A stretch of 32,000 nucleotides of DNA from NCBI GenBank assembly GCA_964510585.1, contig CAZECW010000173.1:30001-62000 (forward strand). Reading direction: 5' to 3'. The first letter of the stretch is position 1; each line of letters opens with the position of its first letter. This DNA is from an uncultured archaeon. GTDB taxonomy: Archaea > Asgardarchaeota > Jordiarchaeia > Jordiarchaeales > Jordiarchaeaceae. The position numbers and the translations under genes are program-made. Shown here piece after piece: positions 21,899 through 28,917 of the stretch. Below the pieces are notes generated by a model that was not told the DNA's origin, did no database searches, and saw only the letters and a program-made list of their open reading frames with translations.

Positions 21899-22975
21899 TT
21901 GTCTGGGGAGGCTGATAGAATTATTATGGACGCCAAAGCGAAGGCGGATTCGATTTTAGAGATTGCCAAGAAGGAAGCGGAAAACATCATTATGAGGGCT
22001 AAGGAAGTTTCAGAGGAAGCTAGGAAGGAGAGAGAGAAGAATTTTCGAAGAATTATTAAAAATCTCCTTATTGACAATCAAGATGAAGTTTTAAAGGGCT
22101 TAAAGACTATTACTGATTTGGATATTCAATCAGTATATGAGGAAACGAAGAAATTAGTGAGTGCATATAAAAATCATGATTTGATAGATAGTTTTCCTGT
22201 CATAGTAAGCTGTCCCAAATGCGGTACAGGTTTCTTTTTAGATTCTGAATTGGAGGAGGAACTTGTTGAGTTGGAAGGGAGGGTGTTTGGCGCGTTTGGC
22301 TGCCCTAATTGCAACGCTCTTTCTAAATATGAATTTTATGAGGGTAAATTTGTGAGTACTCTCGATAGAGGTTTATCTGAAAAAACTTTTTTGGGCTTTA
22401 AAGTGAATGAACTTCGAAAAAGAGTGGAGGAACTTTTGGCGCCTCTTTACAACGAGGTTATCAAGTTTGGAGAGTCAAAACATTCGGTATTAGCTATACC
22501 CATGGCTGATAAGTGTAGAATGATATTGAGGCATATGGCTAAGAAGAGAAGTGACGAGGAAAAATGGGAAACAAGGTGGAATTGTAGATTTAAAGCCGAT
22601 ATAAATACCACCTATATGTGCTCTCTGGCTGGAGAAATTAATTTTGAAAGCAAAAGGGAAAGCAAAACGGGGCTTATGACTTTTAGTATGCCCTTAAAAC
22701 TGGAAAAATCTTACACTTTGCCAAAGGGGGACATTGAAACCTTAGCTCATACTCTAGCTAACATATTTTCTGAGGCCGGCAAAGAGGCCACATTGCAAGT
22801 ACTCAGTCTATTGGAGCATGCTCCACTGGTTTTGGAATGGATGAGACCATTGAGAAGGGTTATGGCCTTTGAAACCTCGGAAGAAATGGTTCCTTTAGTG
22901 TCTGAGCTTGAACAAAAAATCAAGGAAAGAAAGGAGAAACAGGAGAAGACGGAAAAGCAGCCTTTACGTATCTAG
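21899..22975 (+). CDS. Hypothetical protein: hendecad coiled coil plus Zn ribbon plus unknown C-terminal domain
   Basis: GGAGGTG SD before TTG; three 11-residue repeats at the N-terminus; CPKC-x26-CPNC. Confidence 0.75.
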   Translation: MSGEADRIIMDAKAKADSILEIAKKEAENIIMRAKEVSEEARKEREKNFRRIIKNLLIDNQDEVLKGLKTITDLDIQSVYEETKKLVSAYKNHDLIDSFPVIVSCPKCGTGFFLDSELEEELVELEGRVFGAFGCPNCNALSKYEFYEGKFVSTLDRGLSEKTFLGFKVNELRKRVEELLAPLYNEVIKFGESKHSVLAIPMADKCRMILRHMAKKRSDEEKWETRWNCRFKADINTTYMCSLAGEINFESKRESKTGLMTFSMPLKLEKSYTLPKGDIETLAHTLANIFSEAGKEATLQVLSLLEHAPLVLEWMRPLRRVMAFETSEEMVPLVSELEQKIKERKEKQEKTEKQPLRI

Positions 22976-22978
22976 GTT

Positions 22979-24037
22979 TTAGAGTAACAATTTTTCAATT
23001 GTCTTGGTAAGGATTTCGACTGTTTCCAAAAACTGCTTTAAAGATATTTTTTCGTATTCCGTATGATCTAAGCGAGGATCACCAGGACCGTAGGTAACAG
23101 CCGCAGTTTTGATGCTGTTCCCATAAATATTCATATCACCTGTTCCAGTTTTTTTAATTAGACGGGCTTCCTCTCCAGTAACTTCCCTTATTGAACTACT
23201 TAAGGCACTGACTAATGGCGACCTTTTATCAGATTCATAAGGCTCAGTTTTATCTATTACTCTAATTCTGCATTTTACTCCATTGTTTCCCTCTTTATGC
23301 TCTTGAAGTATGCGATTTATTACTTCATAGATTTCATCACAACTCATCTTGAATGGTATCCTAACCCTTACTTCTGCCATGCTTTGATTTTCAACACCAT
23401 TCAATCGTCCTAATGACACGCTTACCGAATCCATTTTTGATTTGGATTGATACTTTCCTAATTCATTCTTGATTTTCAGCCAAACCGAAATTAGTTCTTC
23501 ATTAGCGTTTTTAACGGTAGGATTTGCGGGATGGCCGGGCTCAGTTCCAACCTCAATTTCAACGTTTAAACTTCCTTTATATCCCACCACAATAAAAACG
23601 GTGTTACAAGGTTCCCCAAAAATTGAGTAGTCTGCCTTTAAACCTTTATTTATTATATGTATTATTCCTTCAGATGTCCCCTCTTCTTGCACTGTACCCA
23701 CAACAACTATACTTCCTTTGATTTTCCTACCCACAAAATTTGCCGCAGCAAGTATAAGGGCGGCTAAAGAGGATTTCGCGTCAACCGCTCCCCGACCAGT
23801 TAATTCACCGTTAATTATCTGTACTGGTAAGTACCCTTCCACTGTATCCATATGACCGCAGAGTAGTAGAGTTGGATTCCCTTTTCCAATCCTACCTATG
23901 ACGTTTCCAACTTCATCTATCTCTGCATCAAAACCCAATTCCTTCATCTGTTGGAAGAGAAATTTTGCAAGTTCCGCTTCTTTTCCCGAGGGACTATAGA
24001 TTTCAAGCATTTTTTTAAGAAAATCTTGAGGCTCCAT
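22979..24037 (-). CDS. lysK: [LysW]-lysine/ornithine hydrolase (M20 peptidase)
   Basis: GHMDTV, GRGAVDAK, QEEG, FGEP, TGDMN and DHT motifs; last gene of the lysW operon. Confidence 0.9.
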   Translation of the reverse strand: MEPQDFLKKMLEIYSPSGKEAELAKFLFQQMKELGFDAEIDEVGNVIGRIGKGNPTLLLCGHMDTVEGYLPVQIINGELTGRGAVDAKSSLAALILAAANFVGRKIKGSIVVVGTVQEEGTSEGIIHIINKGLKADYSIFGEPCNTVFIVVGYKGSLNVEIEVGTEPGHPANPTVKNANEELISVWLKIKNELGKYQSKSKMDSVSVSLGRLNGVENQSMAEVRVRIPFKMSCDEIYEVINRILQEHKEGNNGVKCRIRVIDKTEPYESDKRSPLVSALSSSIREVTGEEARLIKKTGTGDMNIYGNSIKTAAVTYGPGDPRLDHTEYEKISLKQFLETVEILTKTIEKLLL

Positions 24038-24040
24038 TCT

Positions 24041-25228
24041 TCAGGTCTCCAATACCTCCGCCAAAATCTCCGCAGTTTTATCAACTTGTTCCTTTTCAAT
24101 AACTAACGGGGGTAGCAGTCTAAGGGTGGTTAGTCCCGAAGTTAAAACCAAAAGTCCCTTTTCCAAAGATTTTACCACATAATCCTTTACTCTGAAACGT
24201 AAATCGATGCCAATCATTAAACCTAGTCCTCTAACCTCTTTTACAATCTTAGAGTTCTCCCCAATAATCTCCAACTTATTTTTTAAGCGTAATCCCAATT
24301 CCTTAGATCTTTGGGGAAGTTTCTCTTCTATTATAACGTCTATTGCAGCGTTTGCAGCAGCACAAGCAAGTGGGTTTCCACCAAAAGTTGAGGCATGTTC
24401 ACTTTCTTTAAGGGAACCCATAACCTCCTCTCTAGCGATAGTAGCACCCATAGGCACTCCACCAGCAATTCCTTTAGCCACAGCCATAATGTCAGGAGTC
24501 ACCTTCCAATGCATACAGGCAAACATTTCCCCGGTTCTACCAAACCCAGTCTGAACCTCATCAAATATTAAAAGAACATTCTTTTCATCGCAAATATCTC
24601 TTAACTCCTCCAGATAACCGTTGGGCGCAGGATTAACTCCCGCTTCTCCCTGCACAGGCTCCACCAAGACCGCAGCAGTGTTCTCATTTATAGCCTCTCG
24701 AACTTCTTCAGCGTCACCAAATTTTACATGAGTAAATCCCGGAACCAAAGGTTCGAAAGGCTCCCTGTACTTTTTCTCCCAAGTAGCTGAGAGCGCCCCC
24801 AAAGTACGTCCATGGAATCCTTTAGTCATAGCTATAATTTCCTTCTTGCCTGTGTATTTGCGAGCCAGCTTTATGGCGCACTCTACTGCTTCTGCTCCAC
24901 TATTTGAAAGAAAAGTTCTTGTTAGGCCTTTGGGAACTATTTTTGTTATTTTTTCTACAAGTTCCGCTCTGACGTCGTTATATAGTATACCGGAGCAGGT
25001 GATAAGCTTCTCAGCCTGATTTTTTATGGCTTCTACGACTTTGGGGTGACAGTGCCCGGTGATGCCTACTCCATGTCCTGCTACACAATCTATATACTCT
25101 CTGCCTTCGGTGTCCCAGACCAGGGCGCCTTTTCCCCTCACAATTACTACTGGTCTTTTAGCGTAGGTTTGGGCTTCGTAGGTATCTTCTAGAAACATAT
25201 ATCTTTTGGCATTATTCGACTGACTCAT
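24041..25228 (-). CDS. lysJ: [LysW]-semialdehyde aminotransferase (class III PLP)
   Basis: NSGAEAVE, FHGRT, EPVQGEAG, FDEVQTG, AKGIAGG (PLP Lys) and HASTFGGNP; operon context. Confidence 0.92.
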   Translation of the reverse strand: MSQSNNAKRYMFLEDTYEAQTYAKRPVVIVRGKGALVWDTEGREYIDCVAGHGVGITGHCHPKVVEAIKNQAEKLITCSGILYNDVRAELVEKITKIVPKGLTRTFLSNSGAEAVECAIKLARKYTGKKEIIAMTKGFHGRTLGALSATWEKKYREPFEPLVPGFTHVKFGDAEEVREAINENTAAVLVEPVQGEAGVNPAPNGYLEELRDICDEKNVLLIFDEVQTGFGRTGEMFACMHWKVTPDIMAVAKGIAGGVPMGATIAREEVMGSLKESEHASTFGGNPLACAAANAAIDVIIEEKLPQRSKELGLRLKNKLEIIGENSKIVKEVRGLGLMIGIDLRFRVKDYVVKSLEKGLLVLTSGLTTLRLLPPLVIEKEQVDKTAEILAEVLET

Positions 25229-26024
25229 TAGTTATCACCGTACAGTTTTTCTCTTCCAAAGCATTAATGAGGGGGTGTTCTCCAATTCCAGAAGCTATTA
25301 CCACTTCAGGTACACCTTCGCGTAGCGCTTCCAGCGCCGCAAATATTTTTCTCCGCATACCGGGGCCAACTTTTTCCATGGCTTGTTTTGCTTCCGCTAT
25401 GCTTAATTTTGTTATTACCTTCTCGTTTTCGAGAACTCCGGGTACGTCTGTCATATCTAACAGTTTATCCGCTTTTATGGCTCCTGCAATGCTTGCAGCT
25501 GCCCTGTCTCCGTCTACGTTCAGGTTTTCTCCTTCTTTACCGATTGCTACTGCGCCTATAACTGGGACATAACCTGCATTTAATAGTAGTTCTAGAAGTT
25601 TAGTGTTAACTTGCACCACTTTTCCCGTGTAGTCACCATCCATTAGGAGTACCTTGTTTCCCTCTTTAACCTTGATTCTTGGCTTCCTTTCTGCTACTAA
25701 AAGTCCCCCATCAATCCCAGACAGCCCTATGGCATTCAAACCCTCCTTTAATAGAACTGTTACCAGCTTTTTGTTTACCGTACCTGCTATGACCATGGTG
25801 TAAATTTCTGCGGTTTCAGCATCCGTGTATCTACTTCTAAAACCCGTAGGGGAGGTGACGAATTTTTGCTCTTTACCCAGTTTTTGCGCAATTTCGGTGA
25901 CAATTTTTGCTCCACCATGTATTATAACTATCTGGTGTTCCTTGGAGAGTTCTTTTACGTCGCGCGCCAAGGGGGATAAATCCTCGTCAATTAAGCTACC
26001 GCCAATTTTTACTACTATTTTCAT
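25212..26024 (-). CDS. lysZ: [LysW]-aminoadipate/glutamate kinase
   Basis: VVKIGGS, IIHGG, SPTGFRSRYTD (LysZ-type), NVDGDRAA, TDVPG and GMRRK. Confidence 0.92.
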   Translation of the reverse strand: MKIVVKIGGSLIDEDLSPLARDVKELSKEHQIVIIHGGAKIVTEIAQKLGKEQKFVTSPTGFRSRYTDAETAEIYTMVIAGTVNKKLVTVLLKEGLNAIGLSGIDGGLLVAERKPRIKVKEGNKVLLMDGDYTGKVVQVNTKLLELLLNAGYVPVIGAVAIGKEGENLNVDGDRAAASIAGAIKADKLLDMTDVPGVLENEKVITKLSIAEAKQAMEKVGPGMRRKIFAALEALREGVPEVVIASGIGEHPLINALEEKNCTVITNESVE

Positions 26025-26040
26025 TTAATCGCATCCTCGA

Positions 26041-27090
26041 TTAATATGGGTGAAGTCCCGGGAAAGTTAGACCAGTAGTTTCGTCTATACCTTCCATAAT
26101 GTTCATACACTGCACTGCTTGTCCCGAAGCACCCTTAATTAGATTGTCTAAAGCGGAGAGAACTACTATGCGTGGCATGTGCTCATCTAACTCGAATCCA
26201 ATATCGCAGTAGTTGGTTCCAACAACAACTTTGGGATCCGGCAATCGGTAGATTCCAGTTTTCTGCTTAACCAGTCTTATGAACGGCTCATCGCCATAGA
26301 ATTCCCTAAAAATACTCCAAACATCTTTTTCGGTAAGTTCATTTTCCAGAAACATATGTATAGTAGATAGAATACCTCGCACCATATCCACCGCATGAGC
26401 GGAGAACGCGACTTTCACTGACTTCCCAGCTACCGCACTTAGTTCCTGCTCGATTTCGGCAGTGTGCCTGTGATTAGTAACCTTATATGGTCTCACGACA
26501 TTTGCCCTTTCCGGGTGGTGGGTAGACAAGGAAAATTCTCTTCCCGAGGCTGAAGAACCCACTTTTGAATCGATTACTATTCTGTTCAAGTCTACAGCCC
26601 CAGTGCTAACAAGGGGGGCTGCCCCCAGTATGGCGCTTGAAGCTAGACATCCGGGACAAGAAACCAAGTTAGCTTTTTTAATTTCCTCTTTGTGAAGTTC
26701 GGATATTCCATATACCGATTTGCCTAGCAGTTCGGGGTGTTCATGTTTACCATAATAGTACTCATAGACCTCTTGGCTTTTAATTCTGAAATCCGCACTC
26801 AAATCTATTACCCTTACTCCTGTTTGAAGTAGTTCAGGCACTATGTTCATAGAAGCTCGGTGGGGCACGTTGAGAAAGACATAGTCACATTTATCGGAAA
26901 CCCTGTTCACGTCATACTCCTCAAACTTTATCTGGGTTATTCCTCTCAGATTCGGGTGCACACTACTCAAATACTTTCCGGAAAACTGCCTAGAAGTTAC
27001 ACAGGTTAACTCGGCTTTAGGGTGGAAAAGTAACAGTCTTACTAGATCTCCACCCGTATATCCTGAAGCTCCAACAACTCCAGCTCTCAT
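26041..27090 (-). CDS. lysY: [LysW]-phosphate reductase (ArgC family)
   Basis: VVGASGYTGG, DLSADFR, CPGC, HHPER, HRHTAEI and DNLIKGASGQAVQ; ATG 27090 overlaps the lysX TGA (ATGA). Confidence 0.92.
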   Translation of the reverse strand: MRAGVVGASGYTGGDLVRLLLFHPKAELTCVTSRQFSGKYLSSVHPNLRGITQIKFEEYDVNRVSDKCDYVFLNVPHRASMNIVPELLQTGVRVIDLSADFRIKSQEVYEYYYGKHEHPELLGKSVYGISELHKEEIKKANLVSCPGCLASSAILGAAPLVSTGAVDLNRIVIDSKVGSSASGREFSLSTHHPERANVVRPYKVTNHRHTAEIEQELSAVAGKSVKVAFSAHAVDMVRGILSTIHMFLENELTEKDVWSIFREFYGDEPFIRLVKQKTGIYRLPDPKVVVGTNYCDIGFELDEHMPRIVVLSALDNLIKGASGQAVQCMNIMEGIDETTGLTFPGLHPY

Positions 27091-27950
27091 TTTAACATCT
27101 CCAAACAATAATCAATTAACATTCCAGGAATATCTACACCTGTTAAGGGTACAGTTGTGTGATACTCCATCGTGTGATTAACTTCATTAACAAGCATACC
27201 TCTTGGGCTTTCTAATATATCTACCCCATAAACTCCTTCCCCAATAGCTCTTGCAGCCCTTAGACTCAAATCCTCAATCTCGGGAGTTACGGGGCAAATT
27301 TCCGCTCGCCCTCCGAGGGCGGTGTTCGTCCGCCACTCACCCTGGCCGGCAACTCGATAAATGGCAGTAACGACCTCATCACCAATGATAAAGCTTCTAA
27401 TATCCCTATTGTTCACCTTTTCTACAAATTCCTGAATATAATAAATCTGGTAAAGTGCTCCCATAGACTCTCTACTTTCAATTATCGCCTTTGCAGATTG
27501 GGGATCCTTTAACGGAGCAATGAGTCTTCCCCAACTGCCAAATACGGGTTTAATCACCGCAGGATATTTCAGTTCCTCTAAAATCTGAAGAGCTGAATCT
27601 ATATCAACAGCCAAAAATGTTCTTGGGCTAGGCACACCTGCTTTGGTTAGAGCCAGCGTTGTTAAAAGCTTGTCTGCGCAAATACTGGAAACCGCATAAG
27701 AATTAACCACTGGATACCCTTTACTCTCCAAAATTTTGGTGATATAGAGACCCTTAAATGTACTCACCATACGCTGAAGATAAATGTCCGCCTCTGGAAT
27801 ATGATCACAGTTTCCAGTAGCTTCTAAGAAAATACTTTTCGCGTCAATGACTAGCAATTTGACATTTTTATTACGCGCAGCTTGAATTAGTGCCTTCTCA
27901 TCCCATCTCACTCGATCACTTATCATGCCGATAGTTACCAATTCACCCAC
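27087..27950 (-). CDS. lysX: LysW ligase LysX/ArgX (RimK-family ATP-grasp)
   Basis: RWDEKAL, KPVFGSWGRL, IQEFV, RDIR, WRTNTALGG and NEVN motifs; directly downstream of lysW. Confidence 0.92.
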   Translation of the reverse strand: MGELVTIGMISDRVRWDEKALIQAARNKNVKLLVIDAKSIFLEATGNCDHIPEADIYLQRMVSTFKGLYITKILESKGYPVVNSYAVSSICADKLLTTLALTKAGVPSPRTFLAVDIDSALQILEELKYPAVIKPVFGSWGRLIAPLKDPQSAKAIIESRESMGALYQIYYIQEFVEKVNNRDIRSFIIGDEVVTAIYRVAGQGEWRTNTALGGRAEICPVTPEIEDLSLRAARAIGEGVYGVDILESPRGMLVNEVNHTMEYHTTVPLTGVDIPGMLIDYCLEMLK

Positions 27951-28000
27951 CTAGATCTTTTTCAACAATAACAACCTTTTTTCAAGAATGTTAGCGTTAC

Positions 28001-28174
28001 TTATTGGCCCCAATCCTCGCCTTCGATCTCTGCGACCTTAAGCTGCACCTTATTCTTTTCTATTGCCACCACTTCAAGCTCGGATCCGCAATCTGGGCAC
28101 TCAACAATCTCTCTTAAAACTGGGTCTTCGAGATCCAAATCGGCACCACACTCTGGACATTTACCCTTAACCAT
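28001..28174 (-). CDS. lysW: Amino-group carrier protein LysW with an atypical C-terminal EDWGQ
   Basis: Translated by hand (absent from the ORF track): MVKGKCPECGADLDLEDPVLREIVECPDCGSELEVVAIEKNKVQLKVAEIEGEDWGQ*. Two CPxC motifs; GAGGTGA SD. Confidence 0.93.
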   Translation of the reverse strand: MVKGKCPECGADLDLEDPVLREIVECPDCGSELEVVAIEKNKVQLKVAEIEGEDWGQ

Positions 28175-28518
28175 TATCCAATCACCTCTGTGATATTAAC
28201 AAGAATCTTTGAACCACTTAACCGTAAAGTGGATTTAGGTATTTTTCCAATGTTGCTAAAAATTGAGCAAAAGATTGTAAAACTAAATGAACTTTTCAAC
28301 ACTTTTTCCATTCCAACATTATATTTAATGGTATATAATTATTAATTGTGGGATAAAAAAGATTAACTTAAATAATTTTTCCCTCCCAAAAACTATTTCT
28401 ACGAAGTTCCAGATAATTGAAAACTAGCAATAAAATAATTTATTAGTAAAAAGCGATAATGATTTAAGCCATTTTTAAAAGAATATACACCTAAATGGTT
28501 TCAAGGAAGTAAAGTGCA

Positions 28519-28713
28519 ATGAAAATCAATAAGGAACTCTGTGGAATTTGCATGGCATGTGCAACCGTATGTCCCAGAAGCGCCATAAATATCACGGAAC
28601 ATGAGGCAGTAGTGGATAACCAAATTTGCAATGACTGCGGTATATGTTTAAAGGTCTGCCCTGTGGGGGCGGTGAGCATTGAAAACGGCAGTACAGCTCA
28701 GCATAGCATCTAA
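28519..28713 (+). CDS. 2x[4Fe-4S] ferredoxin
   Basis: CGICMACATVCP and CNDCGICLKVCP motifs. Confidence 0.92.
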   Translation: MKINKELCGICMACATVCPRSAINITEHEAVVDNQICNDCGICLKVCPVGAVSIENGSTAQHSI

Positions 28714-28917
28714 AAGGCATCTTCCAGCTGCCAAATCAGTTATCTAATTAATTCAAAAGCCCTAAAAGACCTGCTAAGACAACATAAATCATTTAAGCAT
28801 ATTTTACAAACTTTACAGGAACAAAAAAATAAATAATAGTAGGTATCTATTTCCAGCATCCAAAAAGGGTATCCTTTTAATACCTAATTGTTTCGGGACT
28901 ATCCATAGGTGTTATTC

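What the first reader, a model, noticed from the sequence alone, without database searches (positions are those of the whole stretch)
28001..28174. LysW carrier ends in Gln (EDWGQ), lacking the gamma-carboxylate used as the attachment site
Seen: the last codons read GAG GAT TGG GGC CAA TAA, and this is the only lysW in an intact lysWXYZJK cluster. Established: characterised LysW proteins (Thermus, Sulfolobus, Thermococcus) end in EDWGE, and LysX/ArgX joins the substrate amine to the gamma-carboxyl of that terminal Glu. A Gln cannot be activated that way. Inference: either an unknown deamidase matures the carrier, or LysX transamidates the Gln, or the terminal alpha-carboxyl is used (as the homologue RimK does on S6), or this is a GAA>CAA variant or error. 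I recall GQ-ending LysW paralogues in some Nitrososphaerota database entries but cannot verify that, and I know of no biochemical explanation for them.
Basis: partly seen in the sequence, partly recalled or inferred. Interest (0 to 1): 0.72.

Follow-up and report, generated by a model that had tools for sequence, protein, structure and literature searches.

The report
Glutamine-capped LysW carrier in Jordarchaeia
The small carrier protein of this hot-spring Asgard archaeon's lysine pathway really is encoded with a terminal glutamine where the known chemistry needs a glutamate; the change is recent, conserved and under selection, so the carrier is most likely uncapped by a one-time deamidation that has not been described.

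Summary
lysW at 28001-28174 (minus strand) ends GAG GAT TGG GGC CAA TAA (EDWGQ) and heads an intact lysW-X-Y-Z-J-K operon.

- **Not an error or a pseudogene.** Four species-level genomes of the genus carry Gln and two sister species carry Glu. Within the Gln clade, lysW shows 8 synonymous and 1 non-synonymous change (P = 2e-5 under neutrality). All six genes have omega of 0.02-0.19.
A second carrier ending EEDWGE sits in an arginine cluster on another contig. The single-copy LysY must serve both pathways.
- **Gln-ended LysW is widespread.** It is often the only carrier in the genome. The terminal residue is only ever Glu or Gln.
- **This case differs from most others.** Most Gln-type operons carry an EgtC-like cysteine hydrolase and have no LysK. 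This one keeps LysK, gained no gene next to the operon, and has an unchanged LysX.

Best reading (about 0.5): a pro-carrier is deamidated once to Glu, probably by the release hydrolase LysK, as Dop does for PupQ. This is undescribed in the searchable literature, but this scan has already noted it on other genomes.

The parts
28001..28174 (-). lysW1, a 57-aa zinc-ribbon amino-group carrier ending EDWGQ (stop included)
   Evidence: sequence. TIGR01206 62.3 bits, above the 53.2 cut-off; aligns end to end with the solved LysW chains 3wwl_A, 5k2m_E and 3vpb_E, which end in E.
28004..28006 (-). CAA codon for the terminal Gln57, in place of the attachment Glu
   Evidence: The same codon is present in G001, G003 and G004; G002 has GAG and G005 has GAA. 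Contigs of runs X2 and X3 are identical here.
27087..27950 (-). lysX1, the ATP-grasp ligase that loads the carrier (GTG start; GSWGR motif at residues 138-142)
   Evidence: TIGR02144 LysX_arch 314.5 bits, above the 275.6 cut-off; 242.5 bits to LysX 3vpd against 146.8 to ArgX 3vpb. GSWGR present; omega 0.02-0.05 within the Gln clade.
26041..27108 (-). lysY (argC-type reductase), the only copy in the genome
   Evidence: TIGR01850 429 bits; tblastn finds no second copy in G000 (96% complete).
25212..26024 (-). lysZ1, the [LysW]-aminoadipate/glutamate kinase
   Evidence: NF010662 262.6 bits, above the 194 cut-off.
24041..25228 (-). lysJ, the carrier-bound semialdehyde aminotransferase
   Evidence: TIGR00707 485 bits.
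22979..24037 (-). lysK1, the M20 [LysW]-lysine hydrolase; proposed here to act also as the uncapping amidase (inferred)
   Evidence: TIGR01902 287 bits, above the 163 cut-off; NF003367 310 bits, below its 363 cut-off; the most amino-acid variation within the Gln clade (50 codons with amino-acid variation, 77 with synonymous-only variation).
28175..28908 (.). Upstream intergenic region with a conserved 62-aa ORF (28491-28679, minus strand). The 45-aa ORF abutting the lysW start is not conserved as a frame.
   Evidence: the region is 94% identical in G001 and about 68% in the Glu-clade genomes. The 62-aa ORF is 68% identical in G002 and G005. The 45-aa ORF is split between frames in G003; no Pfam match.

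Best explanation
LysW1 is a working carrier made as a capped pro-form. The encoded C-terminal Gln is hydrolysed once to Glu. From then on the carrier cycles as usual: LysX1 activates the gamma-carboxyl and attaches alpha-aminoadipate, LysZ/Y/J modify it, and LysK releases lysine and regenerates LysW-Glu.

Because the carrier is recycled, one slow turnover per molecule is enough. This would make a Glu-to-Gln change nearly neutral wherever a suitable amidase exists.

The most likely amidase here is the operon's own release hydrolase LysK1 (or its paralogue in the arginine cluster). Its normal substrate is already an amide of that same gamma-carboxyl, and Gln is the smallest such amide. This mirrors Dop, which both depupylates and deamidates PupQ before PafA ligates PupE.

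What is shown: the Gln is real, recent, conserved and under selection; the operon and LysX are unchanged; Gln-ended carriers work as sole carriers elsewhere; and only Glu or Gln occurs at the terminus. What is inferred: that deamidation happens, and which enzyme does it.
For: 1. The Gln form is selected, not decaying. Within the four-species Gln clade, lysW1 has 8 synonymous and 1 non-synonymous change (P(<=1 of 9) = 2.3e-5 under neutrality). lysX1 has omega 0.02-0.05 and every gene of the operon is at or below 0.19.

2. Nothing else in the operon changed. Gene order and flanks are the same in Gln and Glu species. LysX1 keeps the GSWGR motif that reads the EDWGE tail (motif role from PMC10433800). 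No LysX residue tracks the terminal residue.

3. Gln-ended LysW is the only LysW-family match in 5 bacterial genomes, two of them single-contig chromosomes, and in 5 archaeal MAGs. Such carriers must therefore be usable. One of them (G046/L127) has a canonical W-X-Y-Z-J-K operon with a true LysK (339.7 bits) and no Ntn hydrolase.

4. Of the best 150 hits among 50%-identity cluster representatives, 132 end in W-[GA]-x: 119 in Glu, 13 in Gln, none in any other residue. The gamma-carbonyl side chain is therefore required, which fits conversion of Gln to Glu.

5. Most Gln-type operons carry an EgtC-like class-II (N-terminal Cys) amidohydrolase between lysY and lysZ, and lack a LysK above cut-off. 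So the carrier's amide-cleaving enzyme and the Gln cap travel together.

6. There is precedent. PupQ is deamidated by Dop, which is also the depupylase (PMC8599861).
Against: - No direct evidence that LysW1 is deamidated. No proteomic or biochemical data are available.
- M20 hydrolases normally bind the leaving amino acid, so activity on a plain carboxamide is untested.
- A stand-alone GATase_4 protein (G000:C187:85126-85905) is an alternative amidase, but it occurs in Glu and Gln species alike.
- The genome has a second, Glu-ended carrier that could make LysW1 charging unnecessary.
- If the cap were simply neutral, its near-universal retention in the large bacterial group would be unexplained.
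Confidence: 0.5

Rival explanations
1. LysW1-Gln is never charged. The second, Glu-ended carrier LysW2 serves LysX1 as well as ArgX. LysW1-Gln persists for a non-carrier role, such as a binding partner or competitive regulator of the operon's enzymes.
For: - A second carrier ending EEDWGE exists in every genome of the genus, including the single-contig genome G005, next to argG, argH, a second ligase, kinase and hydrolase.
- LysY is single-copy, so at least LysY already accepts LysW2 conjugates.
- A back-up carrier would have buffered the Glu-to-Gln change.
Against: - A useless carrier should decay, yet lysW1 is under strong purifying selection, including its acidic tail.
- No non-carrier role of LysW is known.
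- An unchargeable LysW that still binds LysX1 would be an inhibitor.
- In other lineages the Gln-ended LysW is the only carrier, so Gln does not preclude carrier function.
- LysW2 shows no tail change or other obvious shift in the Gln clade.
Confidence: 0.17
2. LysX1 ligates the substrate to the free alpha-carboxyl of the terminal Gln, as RimK-type relatives do on protein S6. This gives an ordinary peptide bond that LysK then removes like a carboxypeptidase.
For: LysX belongs to the RimK family of alpha-L-glutamate ligases (TIGR00768, 294 bits). A neutral side chain would prevent competing gamma-activation. M20 enzymes include carboxypeptidases (own knowledge).
Against: - The switch is recent, and LysX1 and the other four enzymes show no retooling. 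GSWGR is intact, and the clade-specific substitutions lie at positions that also vary in characterised Glu-type LysX.
- If only the alpha-carboxyl mattered, other terminal residues should occur, but only Glu and Gln are seen.
- All five enzymes would have to accept a different linkage geometry after a single mutation.
Confidence: 0.12
3. The cap comes off without an enzyme. Heat-driven hydrolysis of the terminal carboxamide in a hot-spring organism slowly yields enough LysW-Glu.
For: All strong holders of this DNA are hot-spring metagenomes. The carrier is recycled, so little conversion is needed (inference).
Against: - A C-terminal Gln has no following backbone nitrogen for the usual glutarimide route (own knowledge).
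- Many Gln-type carriers were found in MAGs from non-thermal sources such as soils and sediments (record titles).
- Those operons encode a dedicated amidohydrolase.
Confidence: 0.06
4. Artefact: a sequencing or assembly error, or a dying gene.
For: None beyond the single-base difference from GAA.
Against: The same CAA is in four species-level genomes from different springs and in contigs of independent runs. The gene is under purifying selection.
Confidence: 0.01

Closest known systems
LysW/ArgW amino-group carrier proteins of Thermus thermophilus, Sulfurisphaera tokodaii and Thermococcus kodakarensis (PDB 3wwl, 3vpb chain E, 5k2m chain E)
   Same: Same size, same four-Cys zinc ribbon, same acidic tail with EDWG. 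Same operon partners LysX, LysY, LysZ, LysJ and LysK.
   Different: The terminal residue is Gln, not the Glu whose gamma-carboxyl carries the substrate.
PupQ / Dop / PafA of Mycobacterium (pupylation)
   Same: A small protein is encoded with a C-terminal Gln in some lineages and Glu in others. The ligase needs the gamma-carboxyl of Glu. The enzyme that cleaves the gamma-glutamyl amide (Dop) also deamidates the Gln form (PMC8599861).
   Different: The proteins and enzymes are unrelated (glutamine-synthetase fold versus ATP-grasp and M20). This is an analogy of logic only; deamidation of LysW has not been shown.
Gln-ended LysW operons with an EgtC-like class-II (Ntn, Cys1) amidohydrolase, seen here in Ignavibacteria, Calditrichia, Acidobacteriota, Gemmatimonadota, KSB1, Phycisphaerae and Heimdall-type archaea
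   Same: The carrier ends EDWGQ and lies next to lysX-lysY-lysZ-lysJ. The Gln-ended LysW can be the only carrier.
   Different: Those operons have the Ntn hydrolase between lysY and lysZ (fused to LysZ in L070) and no LysK above cut-off. The present operon keeps LysK and has no member of that hydrolase family; the best hit is 21.8 bits to a generic GATase_4 elsewhere in the genome. It also arose separately, inside a Glu-type lineage.
RimK, the ribosomal protein S6 alpha-L-glutamate ligase
   Same: LysX1 is a member of the RimK family. RimK uses a terminal alpha-carboxyl, which is the model for the alpha-linkage rival.
   Different: LysX enzymes use the gamma-carboxyl of the carrier's Glu. Nothing in LysX1 suggests a change of regiochemistry.

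Membership tests
LysW/ArgW amino-group carrier protein (TIGR01206, NF041070, PF21344) | Profile score above the curated cut-off | tested here: met
   TIGR01206 scores 62.3 bits against a 53.2 cut-off. The archaeal domain model NF041070 scores 64.7, below its 75 cut-off.
LysW/ArgW amino-group carrier protein (TIGR01206, NF041070, PF21344) | Zinc ribbon with two CxxC pairs, followed by an acidic tail with EDWG | tested here: met
   CPEC and CPDC are present and the tail reads EIEGEDWG. The protein aligns over its full length with the solved LysW chains.
LysW/ArgW amino-group carrier protein (TIGR01206, NF041070, PF21344) | C-terminal Glu whose gamma-carboxyl receives the substrate amine | tested here: not met
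   The encoded terminal residue is Gln57. All solved LysW end in Glu. Whether the mature protein carries Glu is not testable with these tools.
LysW/ArgW amino-group carrier protein (TIGR01206, NF041070, PF21344) | Encoded next to a LysX/ArgX ligase and the LysZ/Y/J/K enzymes | tested here: met
   lysW-X-Y-Z-J-K is contiguous on the minus strand, 22979-28174. The same order is found in all six genomes of the genus.
Gln-capped LysW operon with an EgtC-like Ntn hydrolase | Class-II amidohydrolase (N-terminal Cys) gene between lysY and lysZ | tested here: not met
   No such gene is in the operon. A profile of 20 members finds only a 21.8-bit partial match, to a generic GATase_4 on C187.
Gln-capped LysW operon with an EgtC-like Ntn hydrolase | No LysK (M20) release hydrolase | tested here: not met
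   LysK1 is present in the operon (TIGR01902, 287 bits) and there is a second copy on C84. The bacterial Gln-type genomes G041 and G042 have no LysK above cut-off.
Pro-form tag activated by deamidation (PupQ-like logic) | Terminal residue varies only between Gln and Glu among relatives | tested here: met
   119 Glu, 13 Gln and no other residue among 132 carrier-like representatives. Glu and Gln both occur within one genus.
Pro-form tag activated by deamidation (PupQ-like logic) | Demonstrated enzymatic conversion of Gln to Glu before ligation | not testable with these tools
   Needs mass spectrometry or an enzyme assay.

The most novel reading that the evidence does not exclude
The LysW carrier system has a hidden activation step. 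The product-release hydrolase (LysK here, an EgtC-like cysteine hydrolase in most other lineages) also uncaps a Gln-ended pro-carrier. This would be a metabolic counterpart of Dop acting on PupQ. The Jordarchaeia genus, with Glu and Gln species that differ by one base in an otherwise identical operon, would be the natural test bed.
Probability: 0.35. Interest if true: 0.75.

Novelty: new variant of a known kind. Interest (0 to 1): 0.6.

Why it matters
LysW-mediated lysine and arginine synthesis is a textbook case of a protein-borne metabolic pathway, and its chemistry rests on the carrier's terminal Glu. About one in ten carrier sequence clusters in my sample encode Gln instead, often as the only carrier, and no paper in the searchable library mentions this.

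Either an activation step is missing from the pathway as written, or the ligase chemistry is more flexible than thought. Both affect pathway annotation, metabolic models of many uncultured bacteria and archaea, and use of these carriers in engineered pathways.

This locus is especially useful. The switch happened recently within one genus, in a canonical LysK-type operon and with no accessory gene gained next to it. That rules out the idea that a dedicated extra hydrolase is always required. It also gives matched Glu and Gln operons for experiments.

Tried and rejected
- **Sequencing error or pseudogene:** rejected.
- **A LysX signature for Gln carriers.** The Gln clade has F115V at a site invariant in my Asgard sample, and K/R27N. 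But other Gln-type LysX keep Phe, and characterised Glu-type LysX have Thr or Leu there, so this means nothing. Eleven columns separate the other Gln-type LysX from Asgard Glu-type LysX. Thermus and Thermococcus Glu-type LysX share the 'Gln-type' residue at the two of these columns I read clearly (160 and 207), but not at 193. I therefore take the split to be mainly phylogenetic rather than linked to the terminal residue.
- **LysX tree**. It needs only two label changes, but all Glu-type rows are Asgard. It therefore shows only that the Jordarchaeia switch is separate and nested in a Glu-type lineage, not that the other Gln-type systems share one origin.
- **A dedicated deamidase in this genome.** The Ntn-hydrolase profile finds only a remote GATase_4. 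That protein is present in Glu and Gln species alike, so it is no discriminator.
- **Gene gain next to the operon in the Gln clade:** none found.
- **Expression:** no RNA holder listed. One run labelled metatranscriptomic holds a 90-95% similar relative as contigs only, so no conclusion can be drawn.
- **Run X4.** It covers the site, but a few of its differences were not printed, so I do not count it.
- **Reaching ammonia-oxidising archaea.** The scan of the 'phylum of G048' covered only 27 genomes and found no further case.
- **Literature.** 'EDWGQ' gave 0 papers. 'LysW' with 'deamidation' gave one irrelevant paper.
- **Complex prediction was not used.** Enzyme-carrier pairs pass by likeness to solved complexes, so the result would not separate the hypotheses.
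- **Word-based homologue search with the window protein**. It found no Gln-ended relative among 111 hits. That was a sampling effect of near relatives, corrected.

Full report
**What is there.** The minus-strand ORF 28174..28001 encodes a 57-residue protein with two CxxC pairs and an acidic tail. Its last codons are GAG GAT TGG GGC CAA TAA. It scores above the curated cut-off of TIGR01206 lysW (62.3 against 53.2 bits). The five genes that follow are LysX (TIGR02144, 314.5 bits), LysY/ArgC, LysZ, LysJ and LysK. It aligns end to end with the three solved LysW proteins, all of which end EDWGE. A recent paper states that this C-terminal Glu links the substrate amine, and that a GSWGR motif of LysX/ArgX reads the EDWGE motif (PMC10433800).

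**The organism.** Near relatives of the protein carry the names Candidatus Freyarchaeota and Jordarchaeia. The DNA is held almost only by hot-spring metagenomes. The genome (G000) has 3.78 Mb in 217 contigs and is 96% complete.

**Not an error and not a dying gene.**
- Of the six species-level genomes of the genus, four (G000, G001, G003, G004) end in CAA TAA. Two (G002 with GAG, G005 with GAA) end in Glu.
- Two of the Gln genomes come from differently named hot-spring MAG projects.
- Contigs of two further studies are identical across the codon.
- Within the Gln clade, lysW1 has eight synonymous changes and one conservative replacement (K40N). Given 35 synonymous and 136 non-synonymous sites, one or fewer replacements among nine changes has P = 2.3e-5 under neutrality.
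- All six genes are intact in all six genomes. Pairwise omega within the Gln clade is 0.02-0.06 for lysX1, lysY and lysZ1, 0.06-0.09 for lysJ and 0.09-0.19 for lysK1.
- On a LysX tree the four Gln species form a supported clade (99/90) inside the genus (100/99), which itself lies inside Glu-type Asgard lineages. So this is one recent Glu-to-Gln change that has since been kept.

**The genome has a second carrier.**
- On contig C84 lie argG, argH, a 57-residue LysW homologue ending EEDWGE, a second LysX-family ligase, a second LysZ-type kinase and a second LysK-type hydrolase. A carbamoyltransferase lies nearby.
- LysX1 is much closer to solved LysX than to ArgX (242.5 against 146.8 bits). The C84 ligase is nearly equidistant (214 against 187.6). 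I therefore read the window operon as the lysine branch and C84 as the arginine branch.
- LysY is single-copy, and no close LysJ paralogue exists (best 37% identity), so these enzymes must serve both carriers.
- lysA and dapA family matches fall below their cut-offs, and four homocitrate-synthase-like genes exist. This is consistent with lysine being made by this route (inference).
- The complete single-contig genome G005 holds both clusters, so they belong to one organism.

**Gln-ended LysW is widespread.**
Of the 80 shown, 62 are full zinc-ribbon LysW proteins ending EDWGQ and three more are cut by contig ends.
- They come from Ignavibacteria/Melioribacteraceae, Calditrichia, Acidobacteriota, Gemmatimonadota, KSB1, Phycisphaerae, Chloroflexota, Heimdall-type Asgard archaea, Undinarchaeales, Woesearchaeota and others.
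- In an exhaustive profile search of 1.84 billion cluster representatives, 132 of the best 150 hits end in W-[GA]-x. Of these, 119 end in Glu, 13 in Gln and none in any other residue.
- In five bacterial genomes (two of them single-contig chromosomes) and in five archaeal MAGs, the Gln-ended protein is the only LysW-family match.
- A Gln terminus is therefore compatible with being the sole carrier.
- No paper in the searchable library contains 'EDWGQ'.

**Two operon types.**
- In the bacterial and Heimdall-type loci the order is lysW(Gln), often a homocitrate synthase, lysX, lysY, a protein of about 212 residues beginning Met-Cys-Arg, lysZ, lysJ.
- That protein is a class-II, N-terminal-Cys amidohydrolase. 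It matches Pfam GATase_4, its nearest curated family is EgtC, and it is fused to LysZ in one Acidobacteriota locus.
- Two such genomes lack a LysK above cut-off. The amide-cleaving enzyme of the operon and the Gln cap thus go together.
- The present operon is different. It keeps LysK and has no member of that hydrolase family. A profile of 20 members finds only a 21.8-bit partial match, to a generic GATase_4 gene on C187 next to pheA. That gene is present in Glu and Gln species alike.
- One other lineage (G046, locus L127) has the same arrangement: a Gln-ended sole LysW, W-X-Y-Z-J-K with a true LysK (339.7 bits) and no Ntn hydrolase.
- A dedicated extra hydrolase is therefore not a general requirement.

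**Nothing else changed with the switch.**
- Gene order, flanking genes and the upstream region are the same in Gln and Glu species.
- LysX1 keeps GSWGR.
- The substitutions specific to the Gln clade lie at sites that vary among characterised Glu-type LysX.
- LysW2 is nearly identical across the Gln clade, and its tail is unchanged.
- LysK1 carries the most amino-acid variation within the Gln clade: 50 codons with amino-acid variation and 77 with synonymous-only variation, against 8 and 71 for LysX1. I record this but do not lean on it, because LysK1 is also the fastest-evolving gene between the two Glu species.

**Mechanism.** The simplest account of all this is a pro-carrier. The encoded Gln is hydrolysed once to Glu, and the carrier then cycles normally. 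Five points support it.
1. The ligase and its recognition motif are unchanged after a one-base switch.
2. Only Glu and Gln occur at the terminus, so the gamma-carbonyl side chain matters.
3. Gln-ended carriers function as sole carriers elsewhere.
4. The enzymes that travel with them are amidohydrolases for gamma-glutamyl amides.
5. Pupylation gives an exact precedent: Dop is both depupylase and PupQ deamidase (PMC8599861).

In this operon the obvious candidate is LysK1, since Gln is the smallest amide of the carboxyl group that LysK normally frees. This step is inferred, not shown. I put the pro-carrier reading at about 0.5.

**Rivals.**
- LysW2 may do all the carrying, with LysW1-Gln kept for another role. 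This would fit the back-up carrier and the shared LysY. But it needs an unknown function to explain the purifying selection, and it is not available to lineages with a single carrier (0.17).
- Ligation may be to the alpha-carboxyl, in the manner of RimK. This is chemically conceivable, but it is hard to reconcile with an unaltered enzyme set after a single mutation and with the strict Glu/Gln alternation (0.12).
- Heat-driven uncapping (0.06) and artefact (0.01) are minor.

**Relation to earlier notes of this scan.** Gln-ended LysW has been reported on other genomes: with the EgtC-like hydrolase in bacteria and an Asgard archaeon, and in ammonia-oxidising archaea. My own tests reproduce the hydrolase association. 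They contradict the statement in some notes that the Gln ending occurs only where that hydrolase replaces LysK. I did not verify the notes on ammonia oxidisers.

**Verdict.** The feature is real, conserved and unexplained by published chemistry. It is a new variant of a known system rather than a new kind. Its particular value is the matched pair of Glu and Gln operons within one genus.

Noticed in passing
G000:C84:9538-10557 (locus L042, minus strand): The carbamoyltransferase beside the LysW2-ArgX-ArgB-ArgE cluster is of the N-acetylornithine type: NF003384 at 399.8 bits (cut-off 288), and 330 bits to Xanthomonas AOTCase structures against 246 bits to archaeal OTCase. This suggests carbamoylation of carrier-bound ornithine, with citrulline released by the cluster's own hydrolase. 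A second OTCase-like gene lies on C140 (37% identity).
   Followed up: partly
window 22979-24037 (lysK1): LysK1 has far more amino-acid variation within the Gln clade (50 codons with amino-acid variation, 77 with synonymous-only variation; omega up to 0.19) than the other operon genes. It could reflect relaxed or shifting constraint on the proposed uncapping enzyme, or simply a fast-evolving gene.
   Followed up: partly
window 28491-28679 (minus strand): A 62-aa ORF upstream of lysW on the same strand is conserved in both clades of the genus (about 68% identity to G002 and G005). It has no Pfam match. It may be a small regulator or leader peptide.
   Followed up: partly
window 21899-22975 (plus strand): A 358-aa ORF convergent on lysK is conserved across the genus (67% identity between clades). 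It has no Pfam family, only a weak coiled-coil-like match to V-ATPase subunit E.
   Followed up: no
L070:6092-7534: In one Acidobacteriota genome the EgtC-like Ntn hydrolase is fused to the LysZ kinase in a 481-aa protein (GATase_4 plus AA_kinase).
   Followed up: no
L114:1-3274: A Thermoproteota MAG has lysW(Gln) followed directly by lysY-lysZ-lysJ, with no lysX between them. No LysK above cut-off and no Ntn hydrolase were found in that genome (G048).
   Followed up: partly
G044:C1:2541964-2542116 (locus L173): A second LysW-like zinc ribbon lies inside a 403-aa open frame in an Acidobacteriota genome. It may be a fused carrier domain.
   Followed up: no
protein ids P0165, P0193, P0205, P0216, P0217: Several long proteins hold two to fourteen LysW-like zinc-ribbon repeats and do not end in WGE or WGQ. 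One has 1052 aa and 14 matched stretches.
   Followed up: no
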